Of a DNA stretch of 64,000 bases, positions 1,660 to 58,655 are shown piece after piece. The translations under genes and the position numbers were made by a program. This DNA comes from a virus (taxonomy: Duplodnaviria; Caudoviricetes), in the IMG/VR virus record IMGVR_UViG_642918906_000001, positions 252,675 to 316,674 of that record; one strand, written 5' to 3'. The first letter of the stretch is position 1; each line of letters begins with the position of its first letter. Under the pieces are notes generated by a model, which did not search any database, was not told the DNA's origin, and saw nothing but the letters and a program-made list of their open reading frames with translations.

Positions 1660-3033
1660 ATGCAACAGTATCTAGATTCCATCATTGACATTAAAGAGAA
1701 CGGCGTTTTTAAAGGTGACCGCACTGGCACTGGTACTCAGAGCAAGCTGGGTCAACAAGAACGTTATTCGCTGCGTGACAACACCCTCCCAGTAATTACC
1801 ACCAAGAAGATCCATCTACCGTCTATCATCCATGAACTGATCTGGATGCTATCGGGTGATACACGTGTAGACTACCTGATCGAAAACGGGGTTCGAATCT
1901 GGAACGAGTGGGTAAAACCGCACACCGCTGAATACCGTGCTTTGATGCCAGGTGAATTGCGTAAAGCACTTCAACCAAAAATCGGTGATCGTCATCTATT
2001 GGTCTTTGTATATGGTGAACAGCGTCCAATCAAAGTGATCGATTACAACTCTTATCTGGATTCTCTGAAAGACGAAGCCGCGCGCGATTTCAAACAACAG
2101 TTCAATGAAGAGCAACTAACCACAGCTGAATACGTGATCGAAGTGACACCAGAAGACTGGCGTCGTGTTAGTACACCAGACTTCAAAGAGCACCTTACTC
2201 CAAACCTTATTCCGTACGAATACGACCAGCGTATTTATCGACTACTGTTTGATAAAGAGCCGATGAAGTTGATCGGCGGTGATCTCGGTGCAGTGTATGG
2301 TAAGACTTGGCGTGATATCGAAGACACCCGTGTGATTCCAAAGTATGACTGGGTTGATTATGAAGCTCGTGGTTTTGACTTCGTAGTGGATGTTCCCGGT
2401 ACCAGCATTGAGAATGATCGTTGTGTTGTAACCCGTCGTATCGATCAGATCCAAGACATCATCGATCAACTCCGTACCAACCCTGATTCTCGTCGGATCA
2501 TCGTTTGTGCATGGGCACCTCAACTGGTAGATGAGCAAGCACTTCCACCATGCCATAGCTTCTTCCAGTTCTGGACTCGTGAATTGACAGTGGAAGAAAG
2601 GATCAAGTTACTCCGTACGACTAAACCTGAGATCTATAACGTGATTGATGGGACCACAGGGTATTTCGAACATATCGCTGATATCAATGATATCCCTAAG
2701 CGTGCAATTAGCTGTCACCTCTATCAGCGTTCGGTTGACGCCTTCCTTGGAAAGCCGTTTAACATCACGTTCTATAGTCTGCTGACTCACTGGCTGGCTA
2801 ACCAACTGAACATGGTTGCGGATGAGTTCGTTTGGACTGGTGGGGATTGTCACATCTATTCCAACCACCAAGAACAAACTGATCTTCAGTTGACTCGTGA
2901 ACCGAAAGCTCTGCCAACTATTCGCTTTACTCCTGAAGCTAAGGGTAAAGACATTCGGGAGATCCGTCCAGAAGACTTCGAGATCCTGAACTACGAGTTC
3001 CATCCACACATTGCAGGTAAGGTAGCTGTCTAA
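1660..3033 (+). CDS. thyA: Thymidylate synthase with large insertions
   Basis: DRTGTGT, IIHELIWMLSG, NPDSRRII, ALPPCH (catalytic Cys), LYQRSVDAFLGKPFN, GDCHIY; GAGG RBS. Confidence 0.97.
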   Translation: MQQYLDSIIDIKENGVFKGDRTGTGTQSKLGQQERYSLRDNTLPVITTKKIHLPSIIHELIWMLSGDTRVDYLIENGVRIWNEWVKPHTAEYRALMPGELRKALQPKIGDRHLLVFVYGEQRPIKVIDYNSYLDSLKDEAARDFKQQFNEEQLTTAEYVIEVTPEDWRRVSTPDFKEHLTPNLIPYEYDQRIYRLLFDKEPMKLIGGDLGAVYGKTWRDIEDTRVIPKYDWVDYEARGFDFVVDVPGTSIENDRCVVTRRIDQIQDIIDQLRTNPDSRRIIVCAWAPQLVDEQALPPCHSFFQFWTRELTVEERIKLLRTTKPEIYNVIDGTTGYFEHIADINDIPKRAISCHLYQRSVDAFLGKPFNITFYSLLTHWLANQLNMVADEFVWTGGDCHIYSNHQEQTDLQLTREPKALPTIRFTPEAKGKDIREIRPEDFEILNYEFHPHIAGKVAV

Positions 3034-4435: not shown

Positions 4436-5842
4436 ATGTCGGCAGTTAAATATAGTGCAGTAGTTGAAAACACCCGTAAACTGGTGCGTGTAGTAAAGGT
4501 AGATGCAATTACCCCAATCAAGAAAGCTGACTTTATCGAGCTGGCCAAAATCGATGGTTGGCAATGTGTAGTAAAGAAAGACGAGTTCAAAGCAGGTGAT
4601 CTGGCAGTGTATGCTGAGATCGATTCCCTGTTACCACTCGACAATCCACTGTTCGCCTTCCTTGGTGAGCGTTCGGATGGTAAGCGGACATTTGATGGCG
4701 TAGCGTACTCTCGTATCCGCACCGCTAAGATGCGTGGTGAAGTATCACAAGGTTTGTTGCTACCACTACCAGAACAATTCAAGGGTAAGAAGGTCGGTAC
4801 TAACCTGACCAACGAACTCGGTGTTCGTAAACTGGAAGCTGAGATCGCTAACGTTGATGGCTTTGATGGTCGTCTTAACAAGGATGGTCCGATTAGTCTG
4901 TGGGAACGTCTGGCGCGTTTTGTAGCAGGTCCACCTGCCGAAGCAATGCATCTTCCTTTCCCTGCTCAGATCTCTAAATCAGATCAAGAGCGTGTTCAGA
5001 ATATCGGTAACCAATATGCCGAAGCAGCGGCGTCCGGCGAGACGTTCGAGGAAACGGTTAAGGTCGATGGTCAATCCATGACAGTTTATAGCTTCCGCGA
5101 TATGGATGAGGCTGGTCCTATTCGCCGCTACGGCGTTTGTTCGCGTAACTTCGACATGCGTATGACTGATGTTGTATTCACCCCTGTACAGGCTTTCCGT
5201 CGCTTTGTAGCACAGAACATGCTTGCCTTAAGTGGTGGGTTCAGTGGTTTGTTCCGTACGGCTCAATTCCTGACTAAACAGGTTATGGATAAAAAGCTGG
5301 ATGCCGACTACGCCATTAAAGAGTACTTCACTAAGCGGTACTTCTGGTTCTCTCCATTTAAAATGTGCATCGCCGCAATGGATGATAACTGCGTCAATTA
5401 TGTTATCACCAACAAAGTACTGGATAAACTGGCAGCTTACAACGTACTGCACGATGACTGCATTACTGTACAGGGTGAGTTGTTCGGTCCAGGTATCCAG
5501 AAGAACTATGAACGTCCTGCTGAGAAACGTTTCGCAGTGTATCAGGTGTATCGTAATGGTAGCGAATGGGTTAAACCGATCGAAGCTCGCGCTATTACCG
5601 AAAGCATCGGCTTGGAATACGTTAAAGTACTGAATGGTTCCACTACGCTACCTAAGTCGGTTAAGGAAGTTCTGACCCGTGCTAAAGGTAAGGGTGCCTA
5701 TGCAGCTTTTGACCCATCGATCAATGCCGTACCTGACATCAACCGTGAAGGTATTGTATTTAAATCAAACACTCGTGATTTCAGCTTTAAGGTAATCTCG
5801 ACTGAATATCTTCTTGAAGCCGAAGCAGCTATGGAAGAATAA
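4436..5842 (+). CDS. RNA ligase, DRB0094/Rnl2-like
   Basis: N-terminal ADFIELAKIDGWQCVVKKDEFKAGDLAVY.EIDSLLP domain; nucleotidyltransferase motifs KVDG, VQGELFG, REGIVFK, FKVIS. Confidence 0.9.
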   Translation: MSAVKYSAVVENTRKLVRVVKVDAITPIKKADFIELAKIDGWQCVVKKDEFKAGDLAVYAEIDSLLPLDNPLFAFLGERSDGKRTFDGVAYSRIRTAKMRGEVSQGLLLPLPEQFKGKKVGTNLTNELGVRKLEAEIANVDGFDGRLNKDGPISLWERLARFVAGPPAEAMHLPFPAQISKSDQERVQNIGNQYAEAAASGETFEETVKVDGQSMTVYSFRDMDEAGPIRRYGVCSRNFDMRMTDVVFTPVQAFRRFVAQNMLALSGGFSGLFRTAQFLTKQVMDKKLDADYAIKEYFTKRYFWFSPFKMCIAAMDDNCVNYVITNKVLDKLAAYNVLHDDCITVQGELFGPGIQKNYERPAEKRFAVYQVYRNGSEWVKPIEARAITESIGLEYVKVLNGSTTLPKSVKEVLTRAKGKGAYAAFDPSINAVPDINREGIVFKSNTRDFSFKVISTEYLLEAEAAMEE

Positions 5843-33297: not shown

Positions 33298-33978
33298 ATG
33301 ACTTCTAAAATCGTAACCTTTCCAGACGTACCAATGACCATGGTCATTAAGCGTCTTACCGATTACACCGTGCAACACTATTCCGGCTTGGATGACATTC
33401 CACATCTCTGTGTGAAAGTCCGCCATCATAATGGCTTCGCGTGGTTTGGTATCAGCATCATTCCAACGGGTAATTATCCTAACGGGTTCCCTGCACCATG
33501 GCCGGCTCAGTTGGTACGTAATGTCAAGACCCAGTTCCTTCAGGCGATGGCTCAGGTTATCGATCTGGCTGAAATGGATTCTGACGTGGATCTGTTGATG
33601 CGTAGTATCCAAGACATCTGCGCCAAGCGTAAACGTCCTGTGATGTTCGGTACTGGCGGTAATGAGTTCATCCAGATCTCGTCTACCAACAACGTTCAGA
33701 TCGAGCTGTATCGCGATGAGGTGAAGCCAGAGTCGTCGACTTACGGTGGTTATTTCTTCGTGGTGGAATATGACGGTCAAACCTTTCCGGGGTTGCTGTA
33801 CCATCGTGGGATCATTGCATACAACTATATCACCAAAGAAGCCGCTCATGGTTTGATCCGTGAAGAACTCCAAGCTAAGTTCCCTGAGTTCTTCAATGAC
33901 CCATCGAAGTTGGTGATCCCTTTCGGTGAAATCATGCAGTTACCACGTAACCGTAACAAGTGGGCTAAGGTGCGATGA
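33298..33978 (+). CDS. Hypothetical protein
   Basis: 226-aa ORF. Confidence 0.8.
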   Translation: MTSKIVTFPDVPMTMVIKRLTDYTVQHYSGLDDIPHLCVKVRHHNGFAWFGISIIPTGNYPNGFPAPWPAQLVRNVKTQFLQAMAQVIDLAEMDSDVDLLMRSIQDICAKRKRPVMFGTGGNEFIQISSTNNVQIELYRDEVKPESSTYGGYFFVVEYDGQTFPGLLYHRGIIAYNYITKEAAHGLIREELQAKFPEFFNDPSKLVIPFGEIMQLPRNRNKWAKVR

Positions 33979-34352
33979 AAACACAGACGCTAGTTATTGA
34001 CCTGATTCGTAACTGGCTTCCGAACGCTACCACTGGTTTGTGGGCGAAGCACTCGATGGAGGGCTTCGATATCATCACAGTTCTGACTGAACCCGAGTAC
34101 CCTGGATTGGAAAAGATTCAGGGGAAAGTCATTTGGGCAGAAGACGGTGTAATTGATGACAAGGCTAATGCTGAACGCAATCTGCTGATTCATCAGGTAG
34201 CCCGTAAGTTCGCCAAAGCCACTGAAACGGTGCTCATTGGCGTCAGGCATGTTGATCGTATTACATACCTCGACTTCAAAGGTGAGTCTATCAAAAACGT
34301 TGAAGGGTTCGACTGGGTGGATGTCGTTCTAGAAAAAGAAATCATCGTTTAG
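33975..34352 (+). CDS. Hypothetical protein
   Basis: TAAGGT RBS, ATGA overlap. Confidence 0.75.
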   Translation: MKTQTLVIDLIRNWLPNATTGLWAKHSMEGFDIITVLTEPEYPGLEKIQGKVIWAEDGVIDDKANAERNLLIHQVARKFAKATETVLIGVRHVDRITYLDFKGESIKNVEGFDWVDVVLEKEIIV

Positions 34353-34385
34353 TAAAAGAATACTCAGTGTGTAATATTATAGGAG
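34351..34385 (+). promoter_or_regulatory. Phage (middle/late-type) promoter shared with the tRNA-Leu locus
   Basis: AGTAAAAGAATAC-TCAGT-GTGTAATATTATAGGAG vs AGTAAAAGAATAC-CAGGA-GTGTAATACTATATGAG on the minus strand at 47762-47796. Confidence 0.7.
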
Positions 34386-34850
34386 TGAATGCTCCTAGCC
34401 CGTGATAAAAGCCTCGTAAAAGTGTTGCTTTCATTTCCCACCCCATCACGGGTTCCCCCTATTCAGGATCACTGCTCTGGTAGTGAACCAAATGAACAAG
34501 GGTGTTCGCAGGGGTTATCTCTCTAACCAGGGTCCCCGTCACCATAAGCAGTAGGTTAGATGCCCTGCTCGAACACCCGCCTAAGCATAATGAACTTTCG
34601 GAATAATTCGCCCGTCCCCAAATAAGGTGGGATGGTTAGTTGGAGATGACCAGTCTCCTAAACCGAAGCACTGATCACTAGGGTGGTACCTATTCGATAC
34701 AGTGAAGTTACTCGATCATATCGGTGTTACACCCCCGATCGAAGTGGCGACTGACAAAGTGATACTTCCTACTAAATGGGTTGTTCAGCTGGCCAGCACA
34801 CATGCGTCAGATTAAACCTCAAGCCCCCACCCTCGTAGGTGGGGGCTTTA
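34380..34850 (+). ncRNA. Candidate large structured ncRNA (~470 nt)
   Basis: Gap without a credible ORF in an otherwise dense genome, tiled by ~8 stems whose G-U pairs work on the + strand, between a promoter and a terminator. Confidence 0.75.
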
Positions 34851-34856
34851 TTCCGT
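34821..34856 (+). terminator. Intrinsic terminator
   Basis: AAGCCCCCACC-CTCGTA-GGTGGGGGCTT-TATTCCGT. Confidence 0.85.
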
Positions 34857-34870
34857 CTCAAGGAGAAACT

Positions 34871-35068
34871 ATGAGTTTGTACGATCAGTTGTTTAAGCTG
34901 TATATTACGGTGAAAGATCCGAAGGTTGTCCGGTATCGTCGACATCCATGTCAACTGCGTATTGTCGGCAAGGCCCGGCATATGTGGGGTAACGAAAGTA
35001 AACTCGATCCCGGTTCTCAAAGCACTGAAACGATTGAAAAACTCATCGCCCGTTATTACATCGATTAA
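34871..35068 (+). CDS. Hypothetical protein
   Basis: AAGGAG RBS before MSLYD. Confidence 0.7.
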   Translation: MSLYDQLFKLYITVKDPKVVRYRRHPCQLRIVGKARHMWGNESKLDPGSQSTETIEKLIARYYID

Positions 35069-35569: not shown

Positions 35570-36063
35570 AGCGCCTTGACCAATACGAAGGTAGCAATCG
35601 CTCAGGCATGTTCAAGTATCGGATCGAAGCTGATGGTGAACTCGAACAGGCTATCCAAGCTGCGTGCGATGAGATGTCAGTTAGCACGGGGGAACCGCAT
35701 GGTATGGATGATCGCCCGAAGCATTATCCTTACATTGCGTTCATCCACCCTGACGATGAATACTATCGCGTGGATCTCGGCTTTGCGACTGCTGAAGATC
35801 TTGTAGGGGATGGTCCAGGTAGTCTGGATGAGCTGAAGGATATGCTCTATAACTACACTACCATGAAGCCGTGGTTGGATCGTATTCATGAAGCCGCACA
35901 ACTTAACGGTGAAGCAAGTATCGAGTTCCGCGATCTTGATGATGAACCTAACTTCGGCAATCAGTACGCTATGAACAACAAACAGGCTGACTGGCTCCGT
36001 AGTCAAGGCTGGGTGGTGCACTGGGAGAAATACCCACGTACTTGGATCGTATCTGGCTGGTGA
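35566..36063 (+). CDS. Hypothetical protein
   Basis: GGAGG RBS. Confidence 0.8.
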   Translation: MKRLDQYEGSNRSGMFKYRIEADGELEQAIQAACDEMSVSTGEPHGMDDRPKHYPYIAFIHPDDEYYRVDLGFATAEDLVGDGPGSLDELKDMLYNYTTMKPWLDRIHEAAQLNGEASIEFRDLDDEPNFGNQYAMNNKQADWLRSQGWVVHWEKYPRTWIVSGW

Positions 36064-36084
36064 TTTCAATTAAGGAGTAATAGC

Positions 36085-36225
36085 ATGCATGACATCGTAG
36101 GAGATCGTCTTAAGAAACAGATTCAATCCCGCCGTACAGAACGGCTACAGTATATTTTCCTCTATTCATTCCTCGGAGTGAATGGACTGTACATCGCATA
36201 CGAACTAATCAAACGATTTATCTAA
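36085..36225 (+). CDS. Small membrane protein (46 aa)
   Basis: TAAGGAG RBS; YIFLYSFLGVNGLYIAY. Confidence 0.6.
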   Translation: MHDIVGDRLKKQIQSRRTERLQYIFLYSFLGVNGLYIAYELIKRFI

Positions 36226-36233
36226 GGACGAAT

Positions 36234-36665
36234 ATGAAAACCCTAAACCCGATCCATGCTGATCACGAAAAGGTCTACAACCACTTTGTAGACCGTCAGG
36301 AGAACGGTCAGTTCGATCGTTACAACGCTGATATGCAGTCTTTTATCAATCGGGTCTGGAATAAGAATCTGGGTGTAGTAGCTGCTATGTCACATAGTGG
36401 TATTGGAGCAGACGTATCGAACGGCTTTGTGCAGTTTGTTGCAGATAACCCATCCATGATGGTTCGCCTTATTGGATGGCTGACTGAGGTACGTGACGCT
36501 TTACCAAAACTACAACAACCCACGGTTGAGATCCGTAGTAAGACTACTCCTAACCATATCGATGATGCAACTCATTATCTAACAGTAATGTTTCGAACCC
36601 CTCGATTCAAAACTAAGGATGATGCTAACACCTGGTGGAGTAAACTGGTCCAATCTTATAACTAA
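36234..36665 (+). CDS. Hypothetical protein, weak TYW3-like N-terminus
   Basis: DMQSFINRV...AAMSHSG recalls D..I..L..N....T..SCSG. Confidence 0.65.
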   Translation: MKTLNPIHADHEKVYNHFVDRQENGQFDRYNADMQSFINRVWNKNLGVVAAMSHSGIGADVSNGFVQFVADNPSMMVRLIGWLTEVRDALPKLQQPTVEIRSKTTPNHIDDATHYLTVMFRTPRFKTKDDANTWWSKLVQSYN

Positions 36666-47015: not shown

Positions 47016-47534
47016 TCACCCCATGTCGTTGCAGATAATGACGCCATCAAAGCCAATGTTAGTCAGCCAGTTATAGAACTTCTCTTTACGCACTGCTTTA
47101 AAGAAGGCCACCGAATTCTGAATGTAAATTCTATTAATGGTGATATTGAAGAAATCGTAATCTTGGCGAACGAATTCAGATATCTCCATCTGTGTTAACA
47201 CTCGCCTTACCACACTTAGCGGTAAGCTGGTATTATCCCCGGTTGAGCCGATCGGAACGTATTCACGGTTAAATGTAAAGCTATTGCGAAAGGTCTCACG
47301 AACACTTTGGTTAGGGGTGATTAGGATAGCATCGTCGTACTTAAGGAAATCTTGATGCATCCAGTACGCAGCACCACATTGCCTAGGTGCACGATAACCT
47401 ACTGTTTTAAAATCTTTAAGCCATGTAGCTTGATCATGTTCCAACCCGAAGTGTGCTTTCAATTCAGTGTGGGTCGTTGCTTTCTCAATCATGCCATCAA
47501 TGAAGCTTTGAATAGCCTCTATATGTGGATACAT
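47016..47534 (-). CDS. Degenerate P-loop NTPase-like protein (paralog of 39963..40466)
   Basis: KTVGYRAPRQCGAA; AILITPN; RKEKFYNW; GAGGT RBS. Confidence 0.7.
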   Translation of the reverse strand: MYPHIEAIQSFIDGMIEKATTHTELKAHFGLEHDQATWLKDFKTVGYRAPRQCGAAYWMHQDFLKYDDAILITPNQSVRETFRNSFTFNREYVPIGSTGDNTSLPLSVVRRVLTQMEISEFVRQDYDFFNITINRIYIQNSVAFFKAVRKEKFYNWLTNIGFDGVIICNDMG

Positions 47535-47559
47535 TGTTATTACCTCTTAGTCGAAATAA

Positions 47560-47579
47560 ATCCTGCCCGAAGGCAGGAC
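47560..47579 (-). terminator. Terminator of the tRNA-Leu transcript
   Basis: TCCTGCC-TTCG-GGCAGGA-TTTATTT on minus strand. Confidence 0.8.
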
Positions 47580-47588
47580 TATTAGAAT

Positions 47589-47675
47589 TGGTGCCGGTGG
47601 TGGGCCTCGATCCCACAATCCCTTACGGGCGGCGGATTTTAAGTCCGCTATCTATACCAATTCGATCACACCGGC
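47589..47675 (-). tRNA. tRNA-Leu (anticodon TAA), CCA encoded
   Basis: GCCGGTG/CACCGGC acceptor, GCGGA-CTTAAAA-TCCGC anticodon arm, long variable arm, T-arm GTGGG-ATCGAGG-CCCAC, ACCA end. Confidence 0.95.
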
Positions 47676-47795
47676 GGGTAGCACTGACGAATCAGTGCGA
47701 CGGACTATACTGGTCCGTTGCAGCTCAGTTACCATGAGTAGGCTATCACGGAGTGTAATTACTCATATAGTATTACACTCCTGGTATTCTTTTAC

Positions 47796-48416
47796 TTAGG
47801 GGGTTACCAGCTCGCCCCATTTAGGATCAAAGGCAATCAACTCGTCACGACTGAGTTCACGCATCCGCCAAGCTTGGATGGAATCAAACTTGATTGTGTT
47901 ATCGTGACAGGAGTACATGTATCCTTGAATTCGGTGACCGTCGGTAGTATAGCCAGTGGTTTCAATTGGGCACACGAATACGTTACCGCGTGCACCTTGC
48001 TTGAACGTGTAGTCCTTTAGTCCGTAAACACGTACATTGATTCCTTCACTGACCGTACTTGAGCGACCAGTGGGCCATATGGCATTTTCATAGTAATCAA
48101 CTTGAGCAATGGTAGCGGGCAGCAGTTTACGGAGTTCATATTCAAACTCTATCTTCAGCTTGATGTTATTCAGTGCATCGAATACGACTTGATCAAATAC
48201 ATAGAAGCCTTCATGGGTGTGTCCTTCGCCTCTATGTACGATGAAACCGTGTTCGCGTTCACCTACGTGAATCGGGTATTGCTCCGTAGATTCCTTAATA
48301 GCCCAATCACTGACGTATTCTATTGATTCTACGACTGTTAGAGTCTTACCAGATTGGTGAGTGACCGTGATTGGACCGTGTTGGTCGATGTACGTGCGGA
48401 TGATGTTGTCATTCAT
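47796..48416 (-). CDS. Hypothetical protein
   Basis: AAGG RBS before MNDNII. Confidence 0.8.
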   Translation of the reverse strand: MNDNIIRTYIDQHGPITVTHQSGKTLTVVESIEYVSDWAIKESTEQYPIHVGEREHGFIVHRGEGHTHEGFYVFDQVVFDALNNIKLKIEFEYELRKLLPATIAQVDYYENAIWPTGRSSTVSEGINVRVYGLKDYTFKQGARGNVFVCPIETTGYTTDGHRIQGYMYSCHDNTIKFDSIQAWRMRELSRDELIAFDPKWGELVTP

Positions 48417-57848: not shown

Positions 57849-58181
57849 ATGTTTGCAAGACTTCGCGCCACAGGTAAGGCGGTTATTCCGACAGCGTCGA
57901 TGAATCACGACATAAAGTGCATAGTGAACGGAGCAGCAACTCCGTTCACTATGGCTAACGACGAGGTTCATTGCTTTGGACTATTCGACTCGCGTGATCG
58001 ATTAGTGGGGTACTTCGGAAATCAAGGATTAGTCCCTGAAATACGAGATGCCACTTATATCGATGGGTTTATGGAACCGATGGTAACAGATGCGCCGGAA
58101 GGTTGCTATGTTAAATCGGTATCCAGATTTTACAAATCAGTAGACCCTAAGATCTACTATAAGGTACGCACTTTACATTAA
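57849..58181 (+). CDS. Hypothetical early protein
   Basis: GAGGT RBS. Confidence 0.75.
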   Translation: MFARLRATGKAVIPTASMNHDIKCIVNGAATPFTMANDEVHCFGLFDSRDRLVGYFGNQGLVPEIRDATYIDGFMEPMVTDAPEGCYVKSVSRFYKSVDPKIYYKVRTLH

Positions 58182-58241
58182 GGTGTAGTAAAACCGTAGT
58201 GCACTGTTAGCGCAGTGCATTACACTACATATCATTGCAAT

Positions 58242-58655
58242 ATGAGTAATTCTTTTATGACCGAAATTAAACAGTTGGATCTCAGTATCCTTAAACGCGA
58301 GCAGTTCGAGAACAAGCGTAGTTACGATAACGCGGTGTGGTATCTCGAACATTTGAACGACCTCGTGATGCTCCACAACTCAGGATACATTCTGTTCTAT
58401 AAAGACCGTATCTTCATTCCTGAATTGAAGGTTAGCTATTACGCTGTCGATGATGCCCCATTTGATGGCGAAGATGGTGAATTCGAAAAGACCGGTGAGG
58501 TTAGATTTATCGGTTTCGGTCCAGCTGGGTTGATCGGTATTACTCGCTGCCTTAAGAAAGGACGTATCTACGTTTCCAAGCGCGAAGCTAAGGAATACCT
58601 CAAGGCTATCCAAGTTGTTCATAAACCCGACTTCCATAACTTTCTGGATCTGTAA
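58242..58655 (+). CDS. Hypothetical protein, tandem paralog 1
   Basis: N.G.I.F....PE...G.I...K pattern shared with next ORF. Confidence 0.75.
   Translation: MSNSFMTEIKQLDLSILKREQFENKRSYDNAVWYLEHLNDLVMLHNSGYILFYKDRIFIPELKVSYYAVDDAPFDGEDGEFEKTGEVRFIGFGPAGLIGITRCLKKGRIYVSKREAKEYLKAIQVVHKPDFHNFLDL

What the first reader, a model, noticed from the sequence alone, without database searches (positions are those of the whole stretch)
34351..34856. ~470-nt highly structured ncRNA with its own promoter (shared with the tRNA locus) and terminator
Seen: the largest gap without a credible ORF is tiled by consecutive stems. They are TAGGAG/CTCCTA (34380-97), GCCCGTGAT/ATCACGGGT (34398-453), TCACTGC/GTAGTGA (34469-86), GGGTGTTCG-CAGGG...TCTAACC/GGTTAGA...CCCTG-CGAACACCC (34500-578), CCGTCCC/GGGATGG (34612-35), GGAGA/TCTCC (34642-58), CACTG-ATC-TAGG/CCTA-GAT-CAGTG (34669-704), TCGATC/GATCGA (34712-42) and CTGAC/GTCAG (34751-810). 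A possible long-range pairing links TCCCACC (34436) with GGTGGGA (34626). G-U pairs indicate the + strand. The upstream AGTAAAAGAATAC-N5-GTGTAATA(T/C)TATA is nearly identical to the sequence in front of tRNA-Leu. I see no tmRNA, RNase P, SRP or intron consensus. Inference: an abundant jumbo-phage ncRNA of a class I do not recognise (scaffold, sponge or defence decoy).
Basis: partly seen in the sequence, partly recalled or inferred. Interest (0 to 1): 0.9.

Follow-up and report, generated by a model that had tools for sequence, protein, structure and literature searches.

The report
Conserved structured RNA gene, jumbo phages
The gene-free gap holds a real gene for a folded, non-coding RNA of about 470 bases whose 75-base core hairpin is kept by a whole group of giant Pseudomonas phages; it fits no catalogued RNA family and its job is still unknown.

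Summary
Window 34351-34852 (+) is a promoter-to-terminator unit with no conserved ORF. Its 31-nt promoter motif occurs only twice in the 316,674-bp genome; the other copy precedes tRNA-Leu.

All 16 distinct relatives carry a ~75-nt, four-helix core hairpin (window 34500-34578). These include phiKZ, PhiPA3, PS119XW, Phabio, Psa21, Viktualia and uncultivated contigs. Invariant unpaired motifs are AUCUC, CCCGUC and UGC, plus an NCCUA tail. Covariation is strong: 90.8% of cells paired against 36-48% when partners are slid, and 16 of 19 pairs show compensatory changes.

The core model finds one copy in 10 of 10 genomes of this clade. It finds none in 6 more distant nucleus-forming phages, and only one chance-level hit in 151 Pseudomonas genomes. 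Rfam gives nothing.

Short forms (~100-130 nt) and long forms (350-470 nt) exist; the window has the longest.

Function is not shown. My best guess is a stable, trans-acting RNA whose core loops dock a partner. The main rival is a cis-acting leader. Transcription was not shown here.

This scan had already found the family in another genome (e1-6106747); I reached the same reading independently.

The parts
34351..34381 (+). Bipartite promoter-like motif (AAAAGAATAC, 5-nt spacer, GTGTAATAYTATA). Same class as the tRNA-Leu promoter, which the 201phi2-1 paper calls 'middle'.
   Evidence: Only 2 copies in the genome. A comparable motif precedes all 16 family members. PMC11512511 section 13 states that tRNA-Leu is read from a middle promoter. 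The class of this promoter is inferred from its likeness.
34380..34397 (+). 5'-terminal hairpin H1 (TAGGAG/CTCCTA). The start of the RNA near 34380 is inferred, not mapped.
   Evidence: In the consensus fold, with 2 pairs changed on both sides. PS119XW and PhiPA3 also begin with a small hairpin.
34398..34453 (+). Hairpin H2 (GCCCGTGAT/ATCACGGGT) with a variable interior.
   Evidence: Relatives have CCCATGAT/ATCATGGG or CGCATGAT/ATTATGCG.
34469..34486 (+). Hairpin H3 (TCACTGC/GTAGTGA).
   Evidence: In the consensus fold, with one pair changed on both sides and G-U to G-C switches.
34500..34578 (+). Family-defining core hairpin.
- P1 34500-08 / 34570-78
- P2 34509-13 / 34563-67
- J2/3 34514-22 (holds AUCUC)
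- P3 34523-28 / 34554-59
- P4 34530-32 / 34541-43
- loop L4 34533-40 (holds CCCGUC)
- J3/2 34560-62
   Evidence: Segmentation by coordinates. Model R1 finds 16 of 16. 90.8% paired, 16 of 19 pairs compensatory, 0 of 500 shuffles as good, slid controls 36-48%.
34579..34586 (+). Conserved single-stranded tail NCCUA after P1.
   Evidence: U is invariant; the two C and the A are kept in at least 90% of 16 sequences.
34595..34668 (+). Multi-way junction closed by the invariant CUUUCGG/CCGAAG helix. It encloses hairpins 34612-35 and 34642-58.
   Evidence: The same layout appears in each of 6 long-form relatives folded singly, with different hairpin sequences. The hairpin pairs covary.
34669..34704 (+). 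Hairpin H8 (CACTG...CAGTG), followed by the conserved GAAGUUA (34704-34710).
   Evidence: pair 311-344 changes AU to GC; a hairpin at this place in 6 of 6 long forms.
34707..34748 (+). Hairpin H9, closed by GUUAC and GUGGC-type strands. The interior is variable.
   Evidence: Single-sequence folds. Not in the four-sequence consensus, so weaker.
34751..34811 (+). 3' domain closed by CTGAC/GTCAG. It holds a small hairpin with a GGCC loop (GCTGGCCAGC, 34789-34798).
   Evidence: L010 has CTGGT/ACCAG. TGGCCAG is present in 6 of 6 long forms with this extension and absent in L013.
34821..34852 (+). Intrinsic terminator: a G+C-rich hairpin followed by TTTATT.
   Evidence: Stem pairs covary. The following TTTATKCCGYC recurs at 7 places in the genome, at least 4 of them right after a hairpin by my reading of the printed flanks.
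34860..34873 (+). Ribosome-binding site and ATG of the next ORF (65 aa). There is no room for a promoter of its own, so it depends on read-through or on upstream transcription.
   Evidence: Homologs of this ORF follow the RNA in L004, L010 and Phabio only.

Best explanation
This is a gene for a stable, structured non-coding RNA. It is specific to one clade of nucleus-forming Pseudomonas jumbo phages: the phiKZ, PhiPA3/PS119XW, 201phi2-1/Viktualia, Phabio and Psa21 lineages.

Shown:
- The locus is non-coding.
- It is bracketed by a phage promoter motif of the tRNA-Leu type and a standard phage terminator.
- It holds a ~75-nt core of four stacked helices whose pairing is kept by compensatory mutations.
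- Three short unpaired motifs never change: AUCUC in a 9-nt internal loop, CCCGUC in an 8-nt apical loop, and UGC. An NCCUA tail follows.
- In the window's lineage the core is embedded between three 5' hairpins and a ~265-nt 3' extension (a multi-way junction, two hairpins, and a closed domain with a GGCC-loop hairpin). PS119XW and PhiPA3 share this 3' extension.

Inferred:
- The RNA is released at the terminator and acts in trans.
- The rigid helical stack presents the invariant loops at fixed spacing to a partner. The partner is most likely a protein or RNP of the phage or of the host's RNA/translation machinery, given the co-regulation with the tRNA.
- The lineage-specific extensions add stability or further binding sites.
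- Read-through of the terminator supplies the downstream ORFs, as at the tRNA-Leu unit.
For: - Non-coding.
- Promoter: unique to this RNA and tRNA-Leu in the genome, and kept upstream of all 16 members. tRNA-Leu is transcribed from a mapped middle promoter (PMC11512511 section 13).
- Core: found in 16 of 16 distinct syntenic loci. Covariation 90.8% paired against 36-48% slid; 81 compensatory cells against 3-16 slid; 0 of 500 shuffles as good.
- Copy number: one copy in each of 10 of 10 clade genomes.
- Long-form layout: recovered independently in 6 of 6 relatives. It has 14 compensatory pairs among four close relatives.
- Strand: 36 G-U against 4 A-C cells in the long form.
- The RNA outlives its neighbours. 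Downstream genes differ between lineages, and the gp289-like gene that follows the RNA in phiKZ, five Psa21-like loci and Viktualia, with weak partial matches in L004 and PS119XW, gives no match in the window.
- Spacing: the core lies 10 to about 270 nt from the terminator, which argues against a fixed aptamer-terminator switch.
- The tRNA-Leu unit has the same promoter, RNA, terminator, ORF layout.
Against: - No transcript data were seen. No RNA run holds the stretch, and the laid contigs show nothing on expression.
- No partner is identified. The neighbouring conserved proteins have no Pfam family, and the 226-aa neighbour has no clear fold match (best Z 6.0).
- The next ORF starts 19 nt after the terminator with no promoter of its own, which a cis-acting leader would also explain.
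- The core gives no strand signal of its own, and the minus strand folds as well by energy.
Confidence: 0.5

Rival explanations
1. Cis-acting 5' leader. The core is a regulatory RNA element (an attenuator, or a put/EAR-like processive antitermination signal for the phage RNA polymerase) that decides how many polymerases pass the terminator into the downstream operon. The terminated RNA is a by-product.
For: - The layout is promoter, structured RNA, terminator, RBS, with no second promoter.
- Short forms look like aptamer plus terminator.
- Both ONT-cappable-seq papers report many TSS-then-TTS units upstream of genes and suggest antitermination (PMC11512511 section 16; PMC10914365 passages).
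- A gp289-like gene lies downstream in most lineages.
Against: - Downstream genes are not conserved, and the window has no match to the gp289-like gene, yet it keeps the longest RNA.
- The distance from core to terminator varies from about 10 to about 270 nt.
- I saw no conserved alternative pairing between the core and the terminator halves. This was read by eye, not computed.
- tRNA-Leu has the same layout without being a leader.
Confidence: 0.25
2. Precursor of processed small RNAs. The core is a tRNA-minihelix-like substrate: an invariant first G-C pair, P1+P2 of 10-14 bp, and an NCC tail. RNase P and 3' nucleases would cut it out of the longer transcript, as with the stable RNAs of phage tRNA clusters. 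This idea comes from recalled knowledge.
For: - The first pair of P1 is G-C in 16 of 16.
- P1+P2 sums to 10-14 bp, and to 12 in 7 of 16.
- The tail begins NCC in 14 of 16.
- The promoter is shared with the tRNA.
Against: - ARAGORN finds no tRNA or tmRNA here, and there is no T-loop-like sequence.
- The U after NCC is invariant, which RNase P recognition does not require.
- There are no processing data.
Confidence: 0.1
3. Base-pairing regulator or mimic of 16S rRNA. The loops would pair with, or imitate, host ribosomal RNA or Shine-Dalgarno regions.
For: CCCGUCAC in the window's loop equals E. coli 16S positions 1402-1409. In some members the loop is complementary to 16S around positions 105-114.
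Against: - 379 of 500 shuffles of the window's core also give a sense match of 8 nt or more to 16S.
- Only 6 nt are invariant across the family.
- Combined complements of the loops occur only 2-5 times in the genome; one of the hits is the antisense of the RNA itself, and none stood out (no expectation was computed).
Confidence: 0.04
4. Protein-coding small ORFs, or a chance fold in a spacer.
For: Viktualia's record annotates two hypothetical CDS over the homologous stretch. Three ORFs of 34-45 aa exist in the window.
Against: The ORFs are broken in relatives and show no third-position bias. A block of about 100 nt is nearly invariant while the flanking genes diverge. Covariation is strong.
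Confidence: 0.02

Closest known systems
Terminator-bounded '5'UTR-derived' and intergenic ncRNA candidates of phiKZ and 201phi2-1 mapped by ONT-cappable-seq (PMC10914365, passages read; PMC11512511, outline and sections 13 and 16 read)
   Same: Same phages and same layout: a phage promoter, a short structured RNA, an intrinsic terminator, then a gene. The phiKZ short form (between genes 288 and 289) may be among the 17 phiKZ candidates.
   Different: Those lists are in supplements I could not open. The 201phi2-1 screen kept only units under 250 nt, so this 470-nt RNA would have been filtered out. In the text I read, neither paper describes this family, its core structure or its conservation across genera. 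The one conserved sRNA they describe (sRNA005, upstream of gp277) is at another locus.
GOLLD and ROOL RNAs (large ornate phage or prophage RNAs, often near tRNA genes; features recalled, Rfam models searched)
   Same: A large, multi-domain, phage-encoded RNA of unknown function, tied to tRNA-type expression. It has a conserved self-complementary GGCC loop that could mediate self-association.
   Different: No Rfam match at any threshold used. It is smaller. Its conserved part is only about 75 nt, and half the family has only that part. Multimerisation was not tested.
Stable RNAs of unknown function in the phage T4 tRNA cluster (species 1 and 2, rnaC/rnaD; recalled, not tested here)
   Same: Phage-encoded stable RNAs co-expressed with tRNA, with function still unknown.
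   Different: This RNA is not inside a tRNA cluster (tRNA-Leu lies 13 kb away on the other strand). No sequence relation was tested, and processing by RNase P is only a guess here.
HK022 put and Bacillus EAR processive-antitermination RNAs (recalled)
   Same: A structured RNA just downstream of a promoter and upstream of a terminator and an operon.
   Different: No sequence or structural likeness was shown. The polymerase here would be the phage's own non-virion enzyme. No functional data exist.

Membership tests
Any Rfam 15 family (RNase P, SRP, 6S, tmRNA, group I/II introns, GOLLD, ROOL, HEARO, riboswitches and others) | Score at or above the family's gathering threshold | tested here: not met
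   0 matches in the whole window. In E-value mode on the window, on phiKZ and on PS119XW, only weak hits appeared on or running into the terminator hairpin or the flanks; none rests on the core. The best was Thr_leader at 28.5 bits against a gathering score of 55.
tRNA / tmRNA | Cloverleaf or tRNA-like domain with a tag reading frame, as detected by ARAGORN | tested here: not met
   ARAGORN finds only tRNA-Leu at 47589-47675.
The new family defined here (core model R1) | Four stacked helices with AUCUC, CCCGUC and UGC unpaired and an NCCUA tail; matched end to end by R1 | tested here: met
   Window 34498-34586 scores 62.0 bits, E 6.7e-15, model positions 1-78 of 78. This is circular for membership, because the window is among the 16 sequences R1 was built from.
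The new family defined here (core model R1) | Single copy, downstream of the gp287-like gene, behind the AAA..TAC / TGTAAT..TATA promoter motif | tested here: met
   One hit per genome in 10 of 10. All 17 distinct loci fetched through the gp287-like protein or its hits hold the core. Promoter table.
ONT-cappable-seq ncRNA candidates of 201phi2-1 and phiKZ | A mapped TSS and TTS that bound the RNA | not testable with these tools
   Tables S1-S4 of PMC11512511 and Table S7 of PMC10914365 are supplements, which are closed. No RNA reads were available.
ONT-cappable-seq ncRNA candidates of 201phi2-1 | Transcription unit shorter than 250 bp (the paper's filter) | tested here: not met
   Promoter to terminator is about 470 nt. 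The filter is stated in section 16.
GOLLD / ROOL-like ornate RNAs | Homo-oligomeric assembly | not testable with these tools
   The only hint is a conserved GGCC-loop hairpin at 34789-34798.
Cis-acting antitermination or attenuator leader | A conserved regulated gene downstream, and/or a conserved alternative pairing with the terminator | tested here: not met
   Downstream genes differ, and the gp289-like gene gives no match in the window. I saw no conserved anti-terminator pairing; this was read by eye, not computed.

The most novel reading that the evidence does not exclude
The core hairpin is the RNA subunit, or a high-affinity ligand, of a clade-specific ribonucleoprotein that acts on the host's tRNA or translation machinery. 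It would be co-regulated with the phage tRNA. Alternatively, the long form self-assembles through its GGCC loop into a higher-order particle, as ROOL and GOLLD do. Either way it would be a new functional class of phage RNA, not a leader by-product.
Probability: 0.15. Interest if true: 0.85.

Novelty: new variant of a known kind. Interest (0 to 1): 0.6.

Why it matters
phiKZ-like phages are the model for the phage nucleus and are candidates for therapy, yet almost nothing is known about their non-coding RNAs. A 2026 review says only that phiKZ expresses ncRNAs (PMC13282480, one passage read).

Here is a single-copy RNA with textbook covariation. It is kept from phiKZ to 201phi2-1 while the surrounding genes turn over, and it is driven by the same rare promoter as the phage tRNA. 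About 60 deposited genomes leave it unannotated or cover it with 'hypothetical protein' calls.

It gives a defined, mutable target: three invariant loops. It also gives short and long natural variants for genetics, pull-downs and structure work. And it corrects the annotation.

Tried and rejected
**RNA evidence.** The look-up of sequencing runs listed no RNA holder. The three runs laid were contigs. One 217-nt contig covered 34457-34601 from a Viktualia-like relative, and one 156-nt contig covered 34887-35042. Neither says anything on expression.

**Exact-word scans.** Two conserved words scanned in viral contigs found only L004. A single-protein search for related loci found only L009.

**16S mimicry or antisense.** Rejected as unsupported.

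**Trans targets.** A regex search of the phage genome for combined complements of the loops found only 2-5 hits per pattern, none of which stood out (no expectation was computed).

**Replication-primer idea.** Cumulative GC skew has no extreme near the gene.

**Partner proteins.**
- The 226-aa gp287-like neighbour has no Pfam family. Its model has pLDDT 77.6. Foldseek gave nothing at E up to 0.001. The best VIA Z was 6.0, below the tool's stated noise range.
- The 125-aa, 65-aa, 163-aa and 165-aa neighbours have no Pfam family.
- gp289-like has only a weak PHROG likeness to HslV-type peptidase.
- The gp287-like protein is absent from the same 6 distant phages that lack the RNA. That is clade-level co-occurrence only.

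**Host homolog.** R1 found 0 of 5, and then 1 of 151, Pseudomonas genomes (E 0.085, 21.7 bits, chance level, under the tool's stricter filters).

**Six-sequence alignment of the 3' extension.** MAFFT misaligned PS119XW and PhiPA3, so I relied on single-sequence folds between conserved anchors.

**Literature.** The following gave no description of this family:
- a search for '201phi2-1' and 'non-coding RNA';
- a search for PHIKZ288/289 and gp288/289 (7 papers, none relevant);
- a search for Chimalliviridae with ncRNA terms;
- passages of PMC8244752, PMC10914365 and PMC13282480.

Supplements that may list the transcript could not be read.
Full report
**What is there.** The window is positions 252,675-316,674 of a 316,674-bp virus record. 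Its NrdA is 93% identical to that of Pseudomonas phage Viktualia and 63-66% identical to those of phiKZ-like phages. From the length, which I recalled as that of the published genome, and from the PhiPA3 note 'gp423 of 201phi2-1' on the neighbouring gene's homolog, I take it to be phage 201phi2-1 or a near twin. This is an inference.

ORF 33975-34352 ends at 34352 and the next ATG is at 34871. Between them, no + strand ORF exceeds 45 aa.

The motif AGTAAAAGAATAC-N5-GTGTAATAYTATA stands at 34351-34381. It has one other copy in the whole genome, at 47796-47766 on the minus strand, about 90 nt upstream of tRNA-Leu(UAA).

A G+C-rich hairpin followed by TTTATT ends the unit at about 34852. The sequence after it, TTTATKCCGYC, recurs at 7 places in the genome; by my reading of the printed flanks, at least 4 of them follow a hairpin, so this looks like a recurrent phage terminator.

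**Is it more than chance?**
- The + strand RNA folds at -157.1 kcal/mol against -135.8 ± 6.1 for shuffles (z -3.5). The minus strand scores z -4.4, so energy alone proves little.
- Comparison decides it. Viktualia has a homolog at 75% identity. A block of about 100 nt is nearly invariant, while megablast could align only 22% of the surrounding 10 kb, at 78%.
- None of the three small ORFs survives in relatives, and differences show no codon periodicity.

**The family.**
- An HMM search of syntenic regions found the element in PS119XW and Phabio. PhiPA3 and phiKZ were added by reading.
- An alignment of the conserved upstream gene (phiKZ gp287-like, 226 aa) fetched 18 loci from viral contigs.
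- Every locus holds one copy of the element. That gives 16 distinct sequences.
- Segmenting them by coordinates shows four stacked helices, P1 to P4. Between them lie unpaired stretches that do not vary: a 9-nt 5' internal loop ending in AUCUC(Y), an 8-nt apical loop of the form xNCCCGUC (x is U in 15 of 16), a 3-nt 3' internal loop RUG that runs into an invariant C, and a tail NCCUA.
- A covariance model built on this structure (R1) matches all 16 end to end (56-83 bits). The model was built from these same sequences, so the matches themselves are expected.

On the model-guided alignment:

| Measure | Observed | Control |
|---|---|---|
| Cells forming standard pairs | 90.8% | 36-48% with 3' partners slid by 1-3 columns |
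| Pairs changed on both sides | 16 of 19 | |
| Compensatory cells | 81 | 3-16 when slid |
| Column shuffles that reach the observed values | 0 of 500 | |

The alignment is fitted to the model, which favours the structure. The slid controls share that bias, and the gap is large.

**Distribution.**
- R1 finds exactly one copy in each of 10 of 10 complete genomes of the clade.
- It finds none at E up to 1 in EL, OBP, SPN3US, Ea35-70, RSL2 or Goslar (0 of 6; stricter filters applied). These six also lack the gp287-like protein.
- In 151 Pseudomonas genomes there was one hit, at E 0.085 per genome, which is chance level.
- blastn counts in the phage collection: 45 records with the phiKZ form at 80% coverage or more (of 55 with any match); 8 PS119XW-type records plus 2 PhiPA3 records; Psa21 (two records), RVTF4 and D6; and Viktualia. 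Phabio has 2 records by the protein search.
- This is close to the 63 records that hold the gp287-like gene.
- In the hits listed in those searches, no RNA feature is annotated under the match; the features named are 'none', 'hypothetical protein', or (PhiPA3) 'putative phage integrase'.

**Two forms.**
- In phiKZ, Phabio and the Psa21-like group, the RNA is the core plus a terminator, about 100-130 nt from the promoter motif.
- In the window, Viktualia, L004, L010, PS119XW, PhiPA3 and L013 it is 350-470 nt.
- The window's lineage adds three 5' hairpins.
- The 3' extension is shared with PS119XW and PhiPA3 through invariant anchors: CUUUCGG, CCGAAGC, GAAGUUA and UGGCCAG.
- I folded each of 6 long forms separately between these anchors. 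Each gives the same plan with different helix sequences: a junction closed by UUUCGG/CCGAAG that holds two or three hairpins, a hairpin before GAAGUUA, another after it, a closed domain with a small GGCC-loop hairpin, then the terminator.
- Among the four close relatives, RNAalifold gives 99 pairs, 14 of them with compensatory changes.
- On those pairs there are 36 G-U cells and 4 A-C cells. The + strand is therefore 97.7% paired and the minus-strand reading 89.4%.
- The core alone is symmetric in this respect. The strand rests on this count, on the promoter and terminator orientation, and on the flanking genes.

Seven of the nine are in the consensus fold. Six of them covary among the four close relatives; the core covaries across the 16-sequence family. 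CTGAC/GTCAG is supported by a double change in L010. TCGATC/GATCGA appears only in the window's own fold. The long-range TCCCACC/GGTGGGA pairing is not conserved.

**Promoter.**
- All 16 members are preceded by A-rich...TAC, 5-7 nt, (T)G(T/C)AAT, 2-4 nt, TATA/G. The core lies 9-27 nt downstream in the short forms and in PS119XW, PhiPA3 and L013, and 101-119 nt downstream in the window's lineage.
- The 201phi2-1 transcriptome paper states that tRNA-Leu is read from a 'middle' promoter (PMC11512511 section 13). By likeness, this RNA should be middle-class too. This is an inference.
- That paper found 10 transcription units without a CDS, but it screened only units under 250 bp for sRNAs (section 16). 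This RNA would have been missed. Its tables are supplements and could not be opened.

**What it is not.** It matches no Rfam family. It is not a tRNA or tmRNA. It is not a 16S mimic beyond chance.

**How it may work.**
- Shown: the gene is non-coding, structured, single-copy and clade-specific, and it carries a tRNA-type promoter and a standard terminator.
- Inferred: it is a stable trans-acting RNA whose rigid P1-P4 stack presents AUCUC and CCCGUC to a partner.
- For this reading: the RNA is kept while the downstream genes change, and the gp289-like gene that follows it in most lineages gives no match in the window. The distance from core to terminator varies about 25-fold. The tRNA-Leu unit has the same promoter, RNA, terminator, ORF layout.
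- The main rival is a cis-acting leader or antitermination element. It is fed by the absence of any promoter between the terminator and the next ORF, and by the many TSS-then-TTS units that both cappable-seq papers report.
- A processing or tRNA-minihelix reading rests on the invariant first G-C pair, a P1+P2 stack of about 12 bp, and the NCC tail. It is speculative.
- No partner emerged from the neighbours.

**Earlier scan notes.** The same family was already reported from another genome (e1-6106747: ~80-base core shared by phiKZ, PhiPA3 and 201phi2-1, no catalogued family, function unknown). I saw that note only, after my own, and my results agree with it. Notes on other jumbo-phage RNAs related to the 16S 3' end (e1-5788039, e1-5707367) prompted the 16S test, which was negative here.

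**Verdict.** This is a real and well-supported new RNA family of unknown function. Transcription and function remain to be shown.

Noticed in passing
window 57905-58251, minus strand: A third promoter of the same class (AAAAGAATTAC, 5 nt, TTGCAATGATATG), then about 320 nt with no long same-strand ORF, ending in a strong terminator hairpin. Fold z is -5.5 and identity to Viktualia is 82%. This is a candidate second structured RNA. Plus-strand ORFs of 110 and 146 aa overlap it, so coding on the other strand is not excluded.
   Followed up: partly
window 47533-47796, minus strand: The tRNA-Leu unit has the same layout as the RNA gene: promoter motif, a ~90-nt leader, the tRNA (47675-47589), a terminator hairpin with TTTATTTCG, then an RBS and ATG about 25 nt later. 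The 201phi2-1 paper mentions a 5'UTR-derived sRNA immediately upstream of a tRNA.
   Followed up: partly
window 47589-47675: The Rfam gathering-threshold scan of the whole window returned no match at all, not even for the tRNA-Leu that ARAGORN calls.
   Followed up: no
whole genome (7 sites); window 34847-34857: TTTATKCCGYC recurs at 7 places in the genome; by my reading of the printed flanks, at least 4 of them follow a G+C-rich hairpin. This would be a longer conserved terminator signature than a plain U-tract.
   Followed up: partly
window 36060-36234, compared with L004:8860-9720: The close relative L004 has about 860 nt here, with a partial match (56 aa, 37.5%) to the phiKZ gp289-like protein (a weak PHROG match to HslV-type peptidase; N-terminus MT...). 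Viktualia has a fuller match (236 aa, 25%). The window has only about 174 nt and no match, so its lineage seems to have lost the gene.
   Followed up: partly
L001:2998-3448 (Viktualia); PhiPA3 record 291095-291255: Deposited annotations place 'hypothetical protein' CDSs, or the label 'putative phage integrase', over the RNA homologs. These are likely mis-annotations.
   Followed up: partly
window 4436-5842: A 468-aa protein matches the PHROG 'RNA ligase' family over its full length (E 1e-108). A thymidylate synthase lies at 1660-3033.
   Followed up: no
L007:6060-6190 (phiKZ, between genes 287.1 and 288): Another short unit with a promoter-like AAAAGAAATAC...TATG motif and a terminator hairpin, about 500 nt upstream of the phiKZ copy of the RNA.
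   Followed up: no
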